NCBI GenBank assembly: GCA_964016885.1
Contig: CAXHJY010000202.1
Location: forward strand, 38,047 to 102,046
Reading direction: 5' to 3'
Origin: Eledone cirrhosa
Lineage: Eukaryota
DNA: 64,000 bases
The position numbers and the translations under genes were made by a program. How positions within the stretch are numbered: the first letter of the stretch is position 1; each line of letters starts with the position of its first letter. The notes under the pieces are model-generated. The model made no database searches. It was not told where the DNA came from and saw only the letters and a list, made by a program, of their open reading frames with translations. Shown here one piece after another: positions 1,872 to 62,865 of this stretch.

Positions 1872-2060
1872 ATTAGGGCGGTGAATTGGCAGTATCGGTA
1901 GAGGATTGGACGCCATGTTTTCTAGCATAGTTACGTCCATTTTCGGTCTGAGTTCAAATCCCGCCGAGGTTAACTTTGCCTTTCATCCTTAAGGGGTCGA
2001 TAAAATAAAGTACCAGTAATGTACTGGGTAATTGCTGGCCTTGTGCCTAAAGTAGAAACA
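1872..2060 (+). mobile_element. tRNA-derived SINE (MetaSINE-type central domain), short-tail form
   Basis: A-box TGGCAGTATCGG, B-box GAGTTCAAATCC, core GCCTTTCATCCTT..GGGGTCGATAAAATAAAGTACCAG. 20-bp TSD ATTATGACATTATGACGTGA at 1852-1871 and 2061-2080. Confidence 0.9.
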
Positions 2061-2129
2061 ATTATGACATTATGACGTGATCAGTGTGTCTGTGTATATA
2101 TGTATATATATAGTGTGTGTGTGTATATA

Positions 2130-2716
2130 TTCTTATGCCAGGAAACGTATTCACGAATCAAAGTATCGTCTTCCTGATTTCCTTCGGTTGCAACGTTTTT
2201 CGAAATATTTACATCTGCGTTCACAGATTGATTTTTTTAATTTCAGAAGATCGCGTTAAGGTTGAAAGCAGCGATTCTTTTCTTAAACATTAATATGTTA
2301 TTTTAATATAGATATTCGTGTACAGATATTTTTACATACACAAAAACAAAATATAAACAAACAAGGCCACCGATTACATCGTTAGTCTTAGTGTACTTCA
2401 TAGTGCTTTGTGTACTTCATACTGCTTAGTGTACTTCATACTGCTTTTAGCTAGAAGATCCCGTTAAGGGTGAAAGCAGCGATTCATGTTCTGCGTTCAC
2501 AGATTGATGTTTTTAGTTTCAGAAGATCCCGTTAAGTGTGAAAGCAGTGATTCTTTGCTTAAACTTTAATGTTATTTTAATATTTATATATATAATTATA
2601 TATTCGTGTACAGATATTTTTGCATACACAATAACAAAATATAAACAAACGTATTTATTTCACGAGGCTCGATAAGGATAAATATATATCAAATATATAA
2701 GAACCCTAGAGCAAAT
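2130..2716. mobile_element. Rearranged fragments of the Neptune-type PLE 3' repeat (same family as 6980-7248) with CAGAAGA-core HHR copies
   Basis: Matches 6985-7150 at 2135-2305 and 2450-2580 (HHR at 2515-2565). 2672-2716 is the reverse complement of 7157-7208. Confidence 0.75.
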
Positions 2717-3428: not shown

Positions 3429-4440
3429 TCATACATATATATATGTGTGTGTGTGTGTAAAAGTTAAACAGAAATAACCACACAATCGGTGATCTATACA
3501 GTAGGAATATATTAGTTTAAAGTTTGAACTAGCAGGAAGAAGGTCATACAGTTTTGGAGGCTAGTCCTTCATCAGAAATAAGAATGAGAAATTAGAAAGA
3601 TTGAAGAGACGGGCATGGCGGAATCAGAAAAAATGTTTTAGAATAAAATAACAGATCCATTCATGTTGCCATCTCTTGGAAAACTGTTAATGCTGGCGTT
3701 TTGTGTATGACACAAACACACACATACACTAACGCGCGCGCATGCACATATGTTTATATATGGAACAGATATCAGCCTAAATTTAATTTTTTTAAATGTC
3801 AAATCACGCCGCAAAATGGATCATAATATATAGATTATGTGATGTATTATTTATTTCCTTCTCGTTAGAACCTAAAATCCTGCCAGAACCGACGCTGCCT
3901 TTCGGACTTTAGAAATATCAATAAATCAAATATGCATTATACTGGCGTGTGGTGTGGGGACATTTCATTTGACAATCCCATTTTCAATTTTCATTGATTG
4001 GCCATGAGCCTAATTAAGACATAATTAATTTGCAAGTACTTAATTAATCTCGATTGCTTAAACCATTGTCACAATCTAAAACAAAATAATGCCAATGGTC
4101 GACAACAGACCTCTTAGAATAATGTTAATGCTAATGAATATTTAATGTTGATTTTGTTTAGATCAGTAAATGTTTAGAATTGTTTGTTTTTCTTCCATTG
4201 ATGTGTAAAACAGACTTATGTAAATTCTTTTTGGAAATAATTTAGATCTAGTGAGAACAATTTCACTTCATTGCCACACGTCTTATCTTGGGTCTCTATC
4301 TGTGTTCTGCATAGCTAAGCGATTACAAATAAATGTTGATGGATACTAAAATAAAACAATGGGTTTGACATTAATGTTTAAATACACACCCACAGACACA
4401 CACAGACACTCACACACGCAGACATTTATATATATATATA

Positions 4441-4522
4441 TATTAAAATAACAGATTAAAGTTTCAGCAAAGAATCGCTGCTTTCACCCTTAACGTCTTC
4501 AAATTTATTATTATTACTATTA

Positions 4523-5341: not shown

Positions 5342-5547
5342 ATATATATATATTTATTTATATATAAAGAGAGAGTGAGGAAGATATATGGATGGATACA
5401 TATGTGTGTGTGGTGGTGTGTATATATGTATATATATATAATATATATATGTATGTGTATATATATACATATAAATATGTGTATATATATATGTATATAT
5501 ATGTATATATATATATATGTATATAAATATATATATATGTATATATA

Positions 5548-6058
5548 CATCACAGCTTCAAATTTAGCTAAACTACCTAACTGTAGGAACACGTGCAACC
5601 CTGTAGTTAGTACTAACTGTAATTGTAGGAATCGGGTTGATTGCCCCCTATCCGGGAAATGCCTCTCTAGTAACATGGTCTACAAAAGTAAGGTTGAAAC
5701 ACTCACGTTCCGTAGGGCCTACATAGGGTTAACCGCCAATTGATTCAAGCAGCGTCTTTACATGCATACCCATGATTTTCGTTACCCTCTAAGAAGGATT
5801 ATGACGTCACTTTCAGCTTATATCTGGAGTCTAAAAGACAAACACACCCGATATCAGTTACACTGGGAGATCCTAGCTAGGGATAGATCGTATAACGGAA
5901 ATAAAAGACCATGTGACTTCTGCGCCGCTGAGACCCTGGAGATACTCTACGCCAAAGACCACTTCTTAAACAAAAAATCTGAGGCAATTTCGGCTTGTAA
6001 ACATAAATTGTACAAAACTTTCCTGTATTACAGCCCCACATTATACCCTAACGGATAG
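5548..6058 (+). pseudogene. GIY-YIG endonuclease domain of PLE, interrupted by a stop at 5741-5743
   Basis: ORFs 5213..5743 (C-terminal part) and 5762..6058 are in the same frame, with Cys/His knuckle and VY..YIG motifs. Confidence 0.85.
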
Positions 6059-7084
6059 TACGAACTATGCGCGGATATTTACGTCTTGGTGTGGTAGCTA
6101 AGTATATGTTATGTTTATACCATTACTTATTTGTATAGGTAAGTATATATTACCTGTATATTTTATGAAGGTACGTATACTTCCCCGCACGTATATTTGA
6201 TTGTATGTGTTATGGAGTATATATTATATATTCTGGTACATGTGCTTTTGGTTATGGGTATACGTGAGTTTTGCGTCTGTCTGAGTATGCGGGTTCGTAC
6301 GTATGTAGGGTGTGTGTATATGTGTACTTCGTGTTTTGGTTGACGCTCGTCTCCAAACATATGTGTATTTACATGTAGGTATGTGTGTGCGCTTGTTATA
6401 TACGTATTTATTTATATACGTTTATTTAATTATATGTATACACGCACACACACACTCATATATATGTATTAATATATATATTTTTATGTGCGTTTCGTGT
6501 ATACATTCGTATGCGTGCGGGCACAGGCGTTGAGTGGGTTCTGTATGTGCTTGTGGTTTTTTTTTGGGGGGGAGGTACGTGCGTATATTTGTATACCTAT
6601 GGTGAGTGTGTTCGCGTATGCTTGTGTATGTACGTATATGGAAGCGTGTATGTATTTATTTCAATTACCTCTGTATTTTATTTACTGTATTCTTAACTCT
6701 GAAGCCGAGAATCATTCGGTATCCTAGTTAGTATTTTAGTCTACGACTTCAGTTATACCATTTACGTGGTTTTGGCTTTGCGTGCAATTGTTCTCCCCGC
6801 TCCACATATGACGTATTATCTTCAGTTTTTCCGTTCATTGCCTGAGAACGTCTCTATGAACCACCTAATAGATTATTTGTCTACGACTTCTTTTATACCA
6901 TAAAGGTGGTTCTGTCACTGCGTGTAATTGTTTTTCACCGCTCCAAATAATGACGTATTATATTCGTTTTTTCCCGTTCTTTGCCAGGGAACGTTTCCAC
7001 GAACCAAAGTATCGTCTTCCTGTCTTCCGCCGGTTGCAACGTTTTTTGAAATATTCACTTCGGCGTTCCCAGATTGACTTTGTT

Positions 7085-7135
7085 AGTTTCAGAAGATCCC
7101 GTTAAGGGTGAAAGCAGCGATTCTTTGCTTAAACT
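7085..7135 (+). ncRNA. Type I hammerhead variant with CAGAAGA (U4A) core
   Basis: AGTTT-CAGAAGA-T[CCC GTTAA GGG]T-GAAA-GCA[GCGATTCTT]TGC-TT|AAACT. The same core is in the copies at ~2244, 2520, 55275 and 62249-62299(-). Confidence 0.7.
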
Positions 7136-7293
7136 TTAATCTGTTATTTTAATAAATATTTGCTCTACGGTTCATATATATTTGATATATATTTATCCTT
7201 ATCGAGCCCTTTTGGGATTTTAGTCTTCAAATTTATTATTATTACTATTTATATATATATATGTATATAAATATATATATATATGTATATATG

Positions 7294-7440: not shown

Positions 7441-8512
7441 ATTTACTCTTTTATTCTTTTACATGTTCCAGCCATCCGGCTGAGGCCATGCTGGAGCGCC
7501 GCCCCTGTTGCTACACATTTTATCTCCAGCCTGTATTGGTTGGCCACTTGTGTAATAGGGAGTTCGTTGCAGCTGCCCTTAGGTTTCCCTCGTGCCTTGC
7601 TGTGGGCTCATCCGGGATCCTGGATAGCAAGGCGTCGAGATGTTTCTTGAAGACATCCACATCCACACAATGCAGATCTCTCAGATCCCTCGGCAGCTTG
7701 TTGAAGAGTTGAGGGCCCTTGAACCCCAGGCTATTGCAATATCTGCTCCTTATTCTAGATGTGGAAGATGTGACTTTTGGCACCATACAGTGACGTCCTA
7801 TTCCACGGTTGGTCCAGCTGCCAATGCCAAAATTTGCTGCTAGTACCTCCAGGATTTTCCACATGTAGATCACTGCGTATCTCTCCCTTCTTCGTTCCAA
7901 GGAGTAGAGGTTCAGTTCGTTTAGCCTCTCCCAGTAGCTTATTTCTTTCATCGTCGCAATCCTCTTGGTGTAGCTTCGCGGGATTGCCTCAAGCTGCATG
8001 GTTGGTATGACACTATGGGGTGACCATAACTGGGAGCAATAGTCCAGGCGGCTTAGGACAAATGACCTCCATAGTGTCAACATGGTGTCTCGGTCTCTTG
8101 TCCGTAAAGTCCTCAAGATCAAGCCAGCGAGTCGTCTGCACATTGTCGCCACTTTCATGATGTGCGAGGAAAAAGATGCATCATCGCTCATGTCTATACC
8201 CAGGTCTCGTATCGATTTCAACACGGGGATATTTGTGCCCCCTGGTCCGGCGTAACTTTGTTGTGCTGTATTTGTGTTGCAGGTTTGTATTGTTGGGCTT
8301 GGAATTTGCCAGCATTAAACTGCATGTTGTTGTCTTCCGTCCATTTGTATATGGCATCCAGATCTTGTTGTAAAAGGGCAGCGTCAGCCGGGTTTTTTAT
8401 TACCTGTGCTACCTTAGTGTCATCAGCATAGCTAGAGAGGGATGTTGTTGTATGTACTACAGAGGGAATGTCTGAGAGAGCCACCGAAAACAGTAGTGGT
8501 CCCAAGACTGTG
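7441..8512 (-). mobile_element. 5'-truncated CR1-type LINE (RT C-terminal half plus 3' UTR), frameshifted
   Basis: GTVLGPLLF..SYADDTKV..LQQDLDAIYKW..NNMQFN then RDLGI..SRLDYCSQLWSPH..SYWERLNELNLYSLERRRERY. The 3' end is GCTCCAGCATGGCC..GTAAAAGAATAAAAGAG. Confidence 0.9.
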
Positions 8513-14922: not shown

Positions 14923-15633
14923 AATAAACGAAGCCAAATTTTAAACATTTGACTTATTTATTTTATTTTATTTTATTTTATATATATATATATAATTGCA
15001 TGTTATTACTGAGCAAGTCGGTCAGTTCGAAAAGATATATAACGCCATTATGAATTAGAGTCTAGAATCGATCCTTAAAATCATTATAAATATTTGACTC
15101 CCAATAAATTATTCAGGCTGAGTACGTAGTGATCAAGTAGAATAATTTTACATTATTATTTTTCCACCTTTTAACCCACCGACATTGATCATCCTATTAC
15201 TACATCAGTATAGCAATTGTCTTCTCCAAACACGCATGTAATCGCTACAAGTTAACAATATATTTACCTCCGAATAGTCATAGGACTTGTCCTTACTCCA
15301 TTTACTGACAAATACCCGCTGATGATATTCTGCCAGTCCTAAGTTGTATCATATTTAACTCTTAATATATGAATTTTTATTCACACACAATTAATAGACG
15401 TGGCAGAATTGAAATCACATGATACGAGTGAATAACAATTCTTTTAATGTTTCAATGTTTAATTTATTGAAACCCTTGTATATTTTATTTTGGTAATGTC
15501 GCTTCACGACTGTAACAAAATGTTTTACGACTCTTACTATTGAGCGGTGAACGACCTGTTTGAGAAGATTATAACGCTGTTATCCATTAGAGTTTTGTAT
15601 CGAGCAGTAAATGTATAATATATATATATATAT

Positions 15634-15729
15634 ATTAAAATAAGATATTAAAGTTTAAGCAAAGAATCACTGCTTTCACTCTTATCGAGCCCTCTTCGGA
15701 TTTTAGTCTTCTCATTTATTATTATTACT
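15634..15729. mobile_element. Inverted-arm + tail insertion of the Neptune-type PLE 3' repeat
   Basis: Reverse complement of ~7103-7152, joined at CTTA microhomology to the tail CTTATCGAGCCC..TTTATTATTATTACTA. Confidence 0.7.
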
Positions 15730-21707: not shown

Positions 21708-22193
21708 ATTGATTTAGAAACTCAAAATGATCTTTTACAATTAAATAGCTCAAGGAAGGGAAATTTTCCGAGCCGTGTAATACAATTGAATATATGAGAG
21801 GAATGAACACAAATACAAGTATACATGTATTCGAATTGCAAATGACCAAGTTAGCTAGGTTGAAAAAATACTAATTTAAAACAATATGGTTTGCCTCTCT
21901 TGATTTAAAGTAATAAATCAATAAAAATAACAAACCTATATTGGGCAACCGCCGTTTGATACCCGGACAGATCTAAATCTGTTTCGCAACAATTATTAAG
22001 TGAAAGCCACCATTCCTGTGCTCTTCTGCGGGTATCCAGGAAATGTGTACCTTTCACTTCAAAAGAAGTAAGACTGAACTATGTGTCGAGACAGGCAAAC
22101 CATATTGTTTTAAATTAATATTTTTCAACCTAGCTAACTTGGTCATTTGCAAATCGAACACATGTATACTTGTATCGGTTTTCATCCCTCTCA

Positions 22194-35208: not shown

Positions 35209-35388
35209 AGTTTCTACTTTAGGCTCAAGCCCAGCAATTATCCAGTGCATTACTGGTACTTTATTTTATCGACCCCGTAAGGATCAAAGGCAAAGTCAAC
35301 CTCGGCGGCATTTGAACTCAGATCGTAAAGGGACGTAACTATGTTGGAAAGCATGGCGTCCGACCCTCTACCGATACTGCCAATCCAC
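35209..35388 (-). mobile_element. SINE copy, short-tail form
   Basis: Consensus match. Confidence 0.85.
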
Positions 35389-38499: not shown

Positions 38500-39745
38500 T
38501 TTACAGTCTGTGTCCTATTTTTAACTACAAAGCAGTCCTATCTAGAATAGCACTGCTTTCCCGGAAATCGGAATCGGCTAGAAAAGATGACCTACATATT
38601 GTTTACGCAATCCTGTCACCAGTTCCACGAAAATGAAGCTAAAACCAGTAGTTAAACATAACGGGAAACAACTCCCAAATACATAGAATATCGCCAAGCT
38701 CAAAACTGATATGACAAGAAGCCTTTTGGTTAATATTGTAGACAATATTTGGTGAATACTGCAGGCAAAATTCAGCAGAACATAATTGTTTCTACTTTTG
38801 GCACAAGGCCAGCAATTATCCAGTGCATTACTGGTACTTTATTTTATCGACCCCGTAAGGATGAAAGGCAAAGTCAACCTCGGCGGGATTTGAACTCAGA
38901 TCGTAAAGGGACGTAACTATGCTGGAAAACATGGCGTCCGACCCTCTACCGATACTGCCAATCCACAGCAGAACATAATATTGAGGAATTATAGACCCAA
39001 TTGAGAGATAAAATATTTTAGTCTTCGAAGGAGGTTCTTGGCTTTTCTAAAAGGAAGAGCCAAGACTGATTTGAAGAAAATGATGGAATCATAAATAGGG
39101 AAGTTCAAGAAATGTACAGGCAACAGAAGAAATGAATACCGGACAAAAGTAATTCTCAACAGAAAGAAAAGAACATTACAAAGCGGCAAATAAAAAACAC
39201 AATTCAAGCAAAGCTACGCAAAATGGAGCAACAATGGTAGGATGAAAAAGCTAAAGCTCTTCAGGAATCATTTGATAGGCATGACATGAAGTCTTTTTAT
39301 CGAAATTTGAAGGAAGTGTTTCGACCAATCACATCCTGATAACGATCTCTTGAGAGATCGACAGGACATAATAAATCGTTGGGTGGAGCACTTTAACGAA
39401 ATACTCAACAGGGAATCAAATACCGATACAAATGTGATGGCAAACCTTCCTCAGAGACCAATTATGGATTCTCTTTTAAATAGGCCATCTACAGCAGAGG
39501 GGGAGGCAGCTATTAAACATCTGACAAATGGGAAAGCTCCTGGTTGGGATACAGAACGTCACTCAATTTCCTATGTAGATCTGGAACTCTGGATCCATCC
39601 CCCAACAATTTAAAGATTCCACAATTATTCATATGTACAAACACAAAGGCAATAAGTGAGAATGTGACAACCACCAAGGCATATTACTTTACATTGCAGG
39701 AAATATCCTTGGGCGAGTCATGCTGAATAGGCTCAATGAATAGTC
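38500..39745 (+). mobile_element. Decayed RTE-type LINE internal fragment, split by a SINE; left boundary approximate
   Basis: QD*FEEND, then RDRQDIINRWVEHFNEILNRES..LPQRP..AIKHLTNGKAPG, which is the EN-RT linker and start of RT. Confidence 0.75.
38787..38965 (-). mobile_element. SINE copy, short-tail form
   Basis: 14-bp TSD CAGCAGAACATAAT at 38773-38786 and 38966-38979. Confidence 0.9.
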
Positions 39746-43811: not shown

Positions 43812-44267
43812 TTGGATTGGCAGTATCTGTAGAGGGTCGGACGGCATGCTTTCCAGCATAGTTACGCCCATTTACAGTCTGGGTTCAAATCCCGCCAAGG
43901 TTAACTTTACCTTTCATCCTTGCGAGGTCGATAAAATAAGGTACTAGTAATGTACTGAGATAATTGCTGGCCTTGTGCCAAAAATAGAAACAATTATTAA
44001 ACATTATTTCGTTATTAAAGGCGGTGAATTGGCAGTATCGATAGAGGGTTGGACGCCATGCTTTCTAGCATATTTACGTCCCTTTACGGTTTGAGTTCAA
44101 ATCCCGCCGAAGTTAACTTTGCCTTGCATCCTTACAGGGTCGATAAAATAAAGTACTAGTAATGCACTGGGTAATTGCTGGCTTTGTGGCTAAAGTAGAA
44201 ACAATTAGTTCGTTATTAAATACACTGGGTAATTGCTGGCCTTGTGCCTAACGTAGAAACAATTATT
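43812..44267 (+). mobile_element. Tandem SINE copies (43812-43996, 44020-44206, tail-only 44221-44267); a partial minus-strand copy is at 43007-43095
   Basis: Consensus matches separated by repeated TTCGTTATTAAA. Confidence 0.88.
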
Positions 44268-55207: not shown

Positions 55208-55432
55208 ATATTTATTAAAATAACAGATTAAAGTTTAAGCAAAGAATCGTTGCTTTCACTCTTAACGGGATCTTCAGAAGATCTCGTTAAGGGTGAAAGC
55301 AGCGATTCTTTGCTTAAACTTTAATCTGTTATTTTAATAAATATTTGTTCCAGGGTTCTTATATATTTGATATATATTTATCCTTATCGAGCCCACTTTG
55401 GATTTTAGTCTTCAAATTTATTATTATTACTA
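55208..55432. mobile_element. Fold-back copy of the Neptune-type PLE 3' repeat with the junction inside the HHR core
   Basis: ...AACGGGATCTTC|AGAAGATCTCGTT... Arms 55208-55275 and 55277-55344, tail to 55432. Confidence 0.85.
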
Positions 55433-55451
55433 TATATATATATATATATAT

Positions 55452-62190: not shown

Positions 62191-62224
<34 letters not shown>

Positions 62225-62232
<8 letters not shown>

Positions 62233-62865
62233 TAAAATAACAGATTAAAGTTTAAGCAAAGAATCGTTGCTTTCACCCTTAACGGGATCTTCTGAAACTA
62301 ACAAAGTCAATCTGTAAACGCAGAACTGGATATTTCAAAAAACGTTGCAACCGGAGGAAGACAGGAACACGATACTTTGGTTCGTAGAAACGTTCGCTGG
62401 CGAAGAACGGGAAATAATGAATAATACGTCATTAATAGGAGCGGTGAAAAACAATTACGCGCAAAGACAGAACCACGTGTATGGTATAAAAGAGGTCGTA
62501 GACTAATGTTCTCTTAGGTGGTGCATAGAGACGTTCTCTGGCAATGAACGAGAAAACGAAGATAATACGTCATATGTAGAGCGTGGAGAACAATAGCACG
62601 CAAAGACAAAACCATGTAAATGGTATAGCAGAAGTTGTAGACTAAAATTCTAACTAGGAGACCAAATGAATCTCCGCTACAGAGTTAAGAAGAAAGTAAA
62701 TAAATAAATACATACACGCAAACAAAAACGTACATACACAAGCATACGCAAAACCTAACCATAGGTATACAAAACCACGCACATATAAATGTGTGTGTGT
62801 GTGTATGCGGGTATACAAATAAATAAATAATTATATAAACGTATATAAATAAATAAATACGTATA
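62225..62865 (-). mobile_element. Second copy of the Neptune-type PLE 3' repeat, with a CAGAAGA-core HHR at 62249-62299
   Basis: Reverse complement of ~6400-7160, including both 140-bp units. Confidence 0.85.

What the first reader, a model, noticed from the sequence alone, without database searches (positions are those of the whole stretch)
7085..7135. U4A hammerhead variant fixed in a Neptune-type PLE family
Seen: CAGAAGA-T-CCC-GTTAA-GGG-T-GAAA-GCA..TGC-TT|AAACT. The CAGAAGA core is kept in the copies at ~2244, 2520, 7090, 55275 and 62288-62294(-), although these differ elsewhere. The predicted site is CUU, and a U.U pair closes stem II. The motif lies ~110 nt from the element's 3' end. Inference: the variant was present in the transposing master element, so it is either functional or a retained non-cleaving structure used in retrotransposition.
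Basis: partly seen in the sequence, partly recalled or inferred. Interest (0 to 1): 0.75.

Follow-up and report, generated by a model that had tools for sequence, protein, structure and literature searches.

The report
Retrotransposon hammerhead with fixed U4A core
A jumping gene with over ten thousand copies in this animal genome ends in a hammerhead-shaped RNA motif that has an A where its relatives have a U, a second repeat family carries the same change, and the motif likely still cuts itself slowly (untested) while the element inserts from uncut RNA.

Summary
The motif is real: a type I hammerhead fold at 7070-7143 in the terminal repeat of a Penelope-like element. The element is of the Hydra clade, not Neptune. 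Of 10,289 exact genome matches with position 4 left free, 10,225 have A and 28 have U, so U4A was in the master. The U.U pair, NUU site and position near the 3' end are usual for published Hydra hammerheads; only A4 is new. A second family (window 22028, minus) with a different fold also carries A4. In a 1.06-Mb census these two were the only families fixed for a single core change. Subfamily variants avoid the stems and core (0 of 52 versus 10 of 91 sites; p 0.009-0.04), so the fold looks selected after U4A. Copy ends show no excess at the predicted cut, but neither does a canonical-core family. Best reading: a slowed, still selected ribozyme in an element that inserts from uncut RNA; cleavage is untested and no RNA run was listed. 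This scan noted the same family three times on other pieces of this genome. New variant of a known kind.

The parts
5549..6058 (+). 3' end of the element's ORF: CxCX5C linker (5618-5644), GIY-YIG endonuclease (MVY 5675, YIG 5720), CxxC (5912), N (LNK 5966), CxH (5996); 5'-truncated after (TA)n; one in-frame stop at 5741-5743
   Evidence: homologous longer ORF in L047
6059..7248 (+). 3' UTR / pseudo-LTR of a Hydra-clade Penelope-like element (family A), ending in (TA)n
7070..7143 (+). Type I hammerhead fold: distal stem I 7070-7077/7136-7143, bulge 7078-7084, proximal stem I 7085-7089/7131-7135
   Evidence: sequence; fold energies; pair counts
7090..7096 (+). Core C3-A9 with A at position 4 (7091) in place of U
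7097..7109 (+). Stem II: U10.1.U11.1 mismatch, 3 C-G pairs, 5-nt loop
   Evidence: same layout in 14 of 26 published Hydra rows
7110..7130 (+). G12-A15.1, stem III with 9-nt loop, and C16.2-U16.1-U17; predicted cut between 7130 and 7131 (untested)
   Evidence: numbering by established hammerhead convention
7144..7248 (+). Region after the ribozyme with two preferred 3' termini, 7159 and 7248 (89-nt tail), each joined to (TA)n; inferred reverse-transcription start sites
   Evidence: analogy to PMC11167929
2189..2308 (+). Family A copy (core at 2244), stems II and III damaged
2489..2582 (+). Family A copy (core at 2520); a partial copy lies at 2453-2485
4436..4495 (-). Partial family A copy without the first half of the core
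15628..15687 (-). Partial family A copy joined to a forward piece of the tail
55208..55445 (.). Fold-back pair of family A ends, centred on the core (55275)
62192..62785 (-). Family A pLTR copy with intact fold (core 62288-62294), ending at the 7159-equivalent terminus
21958..22036 (-). Second hammerhead family (B) with the same A4 core but a different fold: 8-bp stem I, G10.1-C11.1, long stem II, GUC site; no ORF linked

Best explanation
This is the terminal-repeat hammerhead motif of a young, very abundant Hydra-clade Penelope-like retrotransposon whose master carried A at core position 4, and it likely remains a slow, still-selected self-cleaving RNA while the element inserts from uncut transcripts. 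Shown: the clade, the fold, the fixation of A4, the two 3' ends downstream of the cut, and that inserted copies run through the cut site. Inferred: reverse transcription starts 29 or 118 nt past the cut on intact RNA; occasional cleavage, probably helped by the element's own protein, would free an RNA that begins 159 nt before the start codon of the next tandem copy; A4 removes one backbone contact and lowers the rate without abolishing it, which an element that needs uncut templates can afford.
For: Fixation: 10,225 of 10,289 matches have A, and U (28) is no commoner than sporadic G (18) or C (18) allowing for the A>T bias in these copies. Selection on the fold after A4: subfamily-level variants at 0 of 52 paired or core sites against 10 of 91 other sites (p 0.009; 0.044 with the tail added), while private changes are as frequent in both classes (2.05% and 2.49%); the two variants inside the motif are in the bulge. 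Position 4 is special: in 102 hits (1.06 Mb, one mismatch allowed at any of 12 core positions) 2 of 13 multi-copy clusters were fixed for a change, both U4A; a U4C set of 4 hits also exists. Family B keeps A4 while N7, loop II and one stem III pair change between subfamilies. Literature: U4C keeps enough activity in vivo for a viroid, and U10.1.U11.1 is the best-tolerated mispair (PMC3088659, section 8 and passages); no position-4 change among 44 single-base escape mutants of a phage-borne hammerhead (PMC4075628, part 1 of 2); a PLE hammerhead cleaves only with its protein and is not needed for insertion in vitro (PMC11167929, parts 1-2 of 4). Geometry: cut to ATG is 159 nt in L047.
Against: No cleavage data of any kind. 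All single mutants of the CUGA turn had low activity in a type III hammerhead (PMC9901934, passages). The hammerhead fold is not the predicted ground state: -10.6 against -13.4 kcal/mol alone, proximal stem I probability 0.07 or less, and near 0 with native flanks. No compensatory change of note within family A (2 of 1,560 cells). The same constraint test in family B is not significant (p 0.11-0.12), and A13G occurs in 16 of the first 100 listed family B matches. The family A test used a window and thresholds chosen after looking at the data. The position-4 argument rests on one independent family (about 1 in 12 by chance, my own rough figure). No excess of copy 5' ends at the cut (108 against 126 at a control site), though a canonical family shows none either (11 and 11).
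Confidence: 0.48

Rival explanations
1. U4A killed the ribozyme in one master; the element does not need it and the dead motif was copied along during a recent burst.
For: Young family (about 2-2.5% private divergence), so little time to decay. CUGA mutants have low activity. Ribozyme-dead RNA inserts normally in vitro. Naiad elements spread without canonical hammerheads according to PMC8557442. Poor predicted folding. A13G copies in family B.
Against: Subfamily variants avoid core and stems in family A. No family fixed for a change at any of the other 11 core positions among 13 clusters, while position 4 changed in two. Family B has accumulated many subfamily changes around an intact A4 core.
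Confidence: 0.25
2. The motif no longer cuts but its fold is kept as a handle for the element's protein or as a guide for where reverse transcription starts and stops.
For: Constraint on the fold does not tell catalysis from binding. Both 3' ends lie just downstream. 5' junctions cluster at the upstream edge of the core (8 of 49 starts at 7085-7094; 274 junctions at 7091 against 108 and 126 elsewhere).
Against: The same edge clustering is seen in canonical-core families, so it is not special to A4. In the anole element the minimal template lies downstream and the full pLTR is dispensable. All catalytic positions other than 4 are kept, which binding alone would not obviously require.
Confidence: 0.17
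3. A4 is fully tolerated here: tertiary contacts between the stem I bulge and loop II, or the protein, restore a normal rate, so the true natural consensus is CNGANGA.
For: Two families with different folds carry A4, one (B) with an otherwise textbook, stably predicted fold (-21.5 kcal/mol). An extended stem I with a 7-nt bulge is conserved.
Against: All 26 published Hydra rows and 70 of 88 census hits have C3-U4, so U is strongly preferred. Mutational data show a cost. No tertiary contact was tested.
Confidence: 0.1

Closest known systems
Hydra-clade Penelope-like elements and their hammerheads (Craig et al. 2021, PMC8557442; section 11, passages, supplement parts 2, 54, 55 and search hits seen)
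   Same: DKT, CxCX5C linker, CxxC and CxH around E and N, divergent RT4 motif, (TA)n targets, inverted 5'-truncated copies; sense type I hammerhead near the 3' end with U.U at the base of a short stem II (14 of 26 rows) and NUU site (10 of 26 rows).
   Different: A at position 4 (all 26 rows have U); 9-nt loop III, longer than in those rows; longer 3' region (about 1.2 kb); RWK reads RWC in L047.
Natural hammerhead core variants (Perreault et al. 2011, PMC3088659; section 8 and passages seen; figures not held)
   Same: U10.1.U11.1 and a position-4 change (U4C in a viroid) are known and active at reduced rate.
   Different: U4A does not occur in the main text (0 hits); Figure 5 and supplements were not seen. 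Here the change is fixed in more than 10,000 copies.
Hammerhead of the anole Poseidon element PAc (Frangieh et al. 2024, PMC11167929; parts 1-2 of 4 seen)
   Same: Two reverse-transcription start sites downstream of the cut giving a tail; AT-rich targets; uncut RNA as template.
   Different: Other clade; canonical core; tail here is 89 nt rather than 30-40; the cut lies 159 nt before the start codon rather than 26 nt after it.
Minimal PLE hammerheads (Cervera and De la Pena 2014, PMC4209133; parts 1-2 of 4 seen)
   Same: Type I motif in the pseudo-LTR, low intrinsic activity expected; a U3-A8 covariant family also exists in this genome.
   Different: This motif has a real, non-palindromic stem III and no G10.1-C11.1 pair, so the dimer model does not obviously apply.

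Membership tests
Hydra-clade PLE | Single ORF with RT and C-terminal GIY-YIG endonuclease | tested here: met
   L047 ORF (one frameshift) with RT motifs and MVY..YIG at the C-terminus; Pfam gave no hit, so this rests on motif comparison with the published alignments
Hydra-clade PLE | DKG modified to DKT | tested here: met
   HSDKTGNLY in L047
Hydra-clade PLE | CxCX5C linker; CxxC and CxH flanking E and N | tested here: met
   [20 protein letters not shown]
Hydra-clade PLE | N-terminal RWK motif | tested here: inconclusive
   RWC in the one copy read
Hydra-clade PLE | Insertion into (TA)n | tested here: met
Hydra-clade PLE | Placement in the Hydra clade on an RT tree with reference sequences | not tested
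   Only a tree of this genome's own fragments was built; references were compared by eye
Neptune-clade PLE | CX2-5CxxC linker, DKG motif, RT4 of the G-x-A-M-G type | tested here: not met
   Element has CxCX5C, DKT and FDVSMGASDSAEV, matching Hydra rows and not Neptune rows
Type I hammerhead ribozyme | Three-helix junction in type I order | tested here: met
   Stems I, II, III can form in 1,494 of 1,560 cells over 78 copies; not the predicted minimum-energy fold
Type I hammerhead ribozyme | Core CUGANGA | tested here: not met
   A at position 4 in 10,225 of 10,289; the other six positions fit
Type I hammerhead ribozyme | GAAA and NUH site | tested here: met
   7110-7113 and CUU 7128-7130
Type I hammerhead ribozyme | Match to an Rfam hammerhead model | tested here: not met
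   No hammerhead model up to E 10 for 7030-7180 or for family B
Type I hammerhead ribozyme | Site-specific self-cleavage | not testable with these tools
   No RNA holder listed; genomic junction test uninformative

The most novel reading that the evidence does not exclude
U4A is an active natural hammerhead core variant that arose twice independently in this genome's retroelements because position 4 is a tuning site: it slows self-cleavage so that more transcripts survive as insertion templates, and whole ribozyme families are invisible to searches that require CUGANGA.
Probability: 0.3. Interest if true: 0.65.

Novelty: new variant of a known kind. Interest (0 to 1): 0.42.

Why it matters
What hammerheads do for Penelope-like elements is an open question in the papers read (PMC8557442, PMC11167929). 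A family that reached tens of thousands of copies with a changed core letter gives a ready natural test: if it cleaves, the natural core consensus is wider than the descriptors in use and other families are being missed; if it does not, a large element spread without a working ribozyme yet appears to have kept the fold. Two families with different folds and canonical-core relatives in the same genome supply internal controls.

Tried and rejected
Rfam: whole-window scan listed only microsatellite-driven noise among the 150 of 281 rows shown; local scans gave no hammerhead. Pfam: no hit for the endonuclease pieces or P0001. Neptune label: rejected on motifs. Junction test for cleavage: 108 at the cut against 126 and 274 at control sites; the canonical-core control gave 11 and 11, and none of the canonical families in the sample showed a peak at the cut, so the test does not tell active from inactive. 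Expression: no RNA holder listed. Other public runs: contigs of runs X1, X5, X7, X8, X9, X10, X13 show no other letter at 7091, but most are at low depth and nearly identical to this genome's subfamilies, so I draw no conclusion on other species; X21 laid nothing. Two apparent U4 copies in the random sample are fold-back artefacts. An ORF for family B: neighbouring RT or endonuclease pieces in L059, L063, L074, L125, L128 belong to other insertions. Root of family B: U4 copies sit at tips under midpoint rooting; ancestry unresolved. The hammerhead of the closest-scoring family by tblastn (L085) was not found within 2.6 kb, and the endonuclease tree does not resolve the sister group. Literature for U4A: 'hammerhead ribozyme'+'U4A'+'catalytic core' gave 2 unrelated papers; whole-word 'hammerhead' with any of CAGANGA, CAGAUGA, CAGAAGA, U4A, CNGANGA gave 0. 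Not held: Lunse et al. 2017 (recalled), Nelson and Uhlenbeck 2008, Ambros and Flores 1998; Ruffner 1990 not sought. These, and unseen figures and supplements of PMC3088659 and PMC9901934, may list U4A or its rate. One search opened an unrelated paper.

Full report
Observation. The motif is at the stated place. By the usual hammerhead numbering C3 is 7090, position 4 is A at 7091, stem II is U-CCC-GUUAA-GGG-U (7097-7109), GAAA is 7110-7113, stem III is 7113-7116 with 7126-7129 around a 9-nt loop, and the predicted cut is CUU|AAACU at 7130|7131. Stem I is 7085-7089 with 7131-7135 and continues past a 7-nt bulge as 7070-7077 with 7136-7143. The 7-mer alone is weak evidence (10 matches, 4.76 expected), but the complete fold is not: my structure scan gave 88 hits in 100 evenly spaced 10-kb stretches of the genome and 1 in a shuffle. 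Rfam has no hammerhead match here.

The element. The window copy runs from about 5547 to 7248 between (TA)n tracts and begins in the last 170 codons of an ORF. A near-complete copy (L047) has the repeat with the hammerhead upstream, a start codon 159 nt after the predicted cut, and an ORF with one frameshift that carries reverse transcriptase and GIY-YIG motifs. Pfam does not recognise it. Against the text and alignments of Craig et al. 2021 (PMC8557442; section 11, passages, supplement parts 2, 54, 55 and hits) it has DKT, the CxCX5C linker, CxxC and CxH around E and N, and an RT4 region like Hydra-2_Amil; it does not have the Neptune linker or DKG. It is a Hydra-clade element by motif comparison; I built no tree with references. 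The host is a 3.0-Gb animal genome that no call named.

What is ordinary. The 26 Hydra rows of that paper's hammerhead table all have CUGA; 14 have U.U at the base of a short stem II, 10 have U at position 17, and most lie about 90-210 nt from the consensus end (my counts). U10.1.U11.1 is also a known tolerated mispair (PMC3088659, section 8), and canonical-core families of this genome share it. The two 3' termini, 7159 and 7248 (11 and 12 of 49 ends in the unbiased sample; 140 contig ends at 7159 in run X1), match the two-start tail described for the anole element (PMC11167929, parts 1-2).

What is new. With positions 4 and 7 free, a 34-nt pattern has 10,289 exact matches and 0 for its reversed control; 64 lack A at position 4 (28 U, 18 G, 18 C). 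All 78 copies that span the fold in my loci have A. Nineteen fragments covering the core in 1.0 Mb suggest roughly 57,000 (34,000-89,000) in the genome (my extrapolation). U4A was therefore in the master. I found no printed U4A in the searches; several key papers were not held.

A second family. At 22028 (minus) lies an unrelated type I fold with the same CAGAAGA core, an 8-bp stem I, G10.1-C11.1 and a GUC site. A 20-nt pattern has 272 matches; of the first 100 listed, 96 have A4, 3 U, 1 C, and position 7 varies (83 A, 11 U, 1 G, 1 C among the A4 rows). Its subfamilies differ in loop II, and a stem III pair changes on both sides in three loci (L138, L143, L183). A canonical-core family of similar layout exists (L190), which suggests, by resemblance only, a separate origin of A4. 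No ORF could be tied to family B. In a census allowing one mismatch at any of 12 core positions (102 hits in 1.06 Mb), 2 of 13 multi-copy clusters were fixed for a change, both U4A; singletons with U16.1C, G5U and U4C could not be judged there, and a U4C set of 4 hits appears over all loci. Since family A was the starting point, only family B is an independent draw (about 1 in 12).

Is the fold selected? Changes shared by many copies mark master lineages: among 84 fragments not chosen for their hammerhead, such changes fall at 0 of 52 paired or core sites and 10 of 91 others in 7007-7157 (p 0.009), or an estimated 12 of 180 with the tail (p 0.044). Window and thresholds were set after seeing the data. 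Family B gives the same direction without significance (p 0.11-0.12), and 16 of its first 100 listed matches have A13G, spread over subfamilies.

Does it cut? Unknown. No RNA holder was listed. Copies starting exactly at the cut are no commoner than at a control site (108 against 126), but the same holds for a canonical-core family (11 and 11); this shows only that inserted copies come from RNA that is continuous across the site, as reported in vitro for the anole element. Folding does not favour the active form (-10.6 against -13.4 kcal/mol; near-zero probability of proximal stem I with native flanks). Published mutational evidence is mixed: low activity for all CUGA single mutants in one type III ribozyme (PMC9901934, passages); U4C reduced in vitro yet sufficient in vivo (PMC3088659, passage); no position-4 change among 44 single-base escape mutants in a phage screen with a U4 hammerhead, where transversions were under-sampled (PMC4075628, part 1).

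Verdict. Most likely (0.48) a slowed but still selected ribozyme; rivals are a dead hitch-hiker (0.25), a non-cutting handle (0.17) and a fully active variant (0.10). It works like a PLE hammerhead and belongs to the Hydra clade; it fails the strict core test of the hammerhead class at one position and cleavage is untested. The scan's earlier notes e1-10304421, e1-10310971 and e1-10330111 describe the same family on other pieces of this genome and also name the Hydra clade; I had reached that reading before looking, and they are not independent support. The second A4 family, the census and the junction control are not in the short texts of those notes that I saw.

Noticed in passing
G000, family B matches; e.g. 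L059, L067, L081, L084, L144: A13 reads G in 16 of the first 100 listed matches while A14 changes in 1; the change is scattered over subfamilies. A mutation hotspot or A-to-I editing of the RNA template are possible; family A shows none (0 of 102) and there is no general A>G excess in B.
   Followed up: partly
L002:2927 (+): Hammerhead set with core CCGAAGA (U4C), 4 hits over all loci.
   Followed up: no
L093:3186 (+); L108:1158 (+): Hammerheads with the U3-A8 swap (5 hits in one cluster, 1 in another).
   Followed up: no
window 5038 (+), 14661 (-), 14873 (+), 52323 (-), 55096 (+), 55941 (+): Canonical-core type I hammerheads of other repeat families in the same window; the census lists 19 clusters.
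   Followed up: partly
window 55208-55445; L145, L146; families at L157, L183, L104: 5' junctions and fold-backs cluster at the upstream edge of the hammerhead core in several families, canonical or not. In family A the core sits in a TTC-N-GAA quasi-palindrome whose inversion swaps U4 and A4, a possible route to the variant (speculation).
   Followed up: partly
G000:C2:394302262-394302633; C1:338736671-338736871: Matches spaced 171 bp apart, a small tandem derivative of family A that begins inside the core.
   Followed up: no
window 6736-6863 and 6876-7006: An internal 140-bp duplication (80% identity) in the pLTR upstream of the hammerhead.
   Followed up: no
window 7560-8510 (-): By eye, a fragment of another reverse-transcriptase element next to the finding.
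   Followed up: no
window 1878-2066, 35210-35388, 38781-38969, 44021-44207: A dispersed 180-190 bp repeat, about 90% identical, SINE-like by eye.
   Followed up: no
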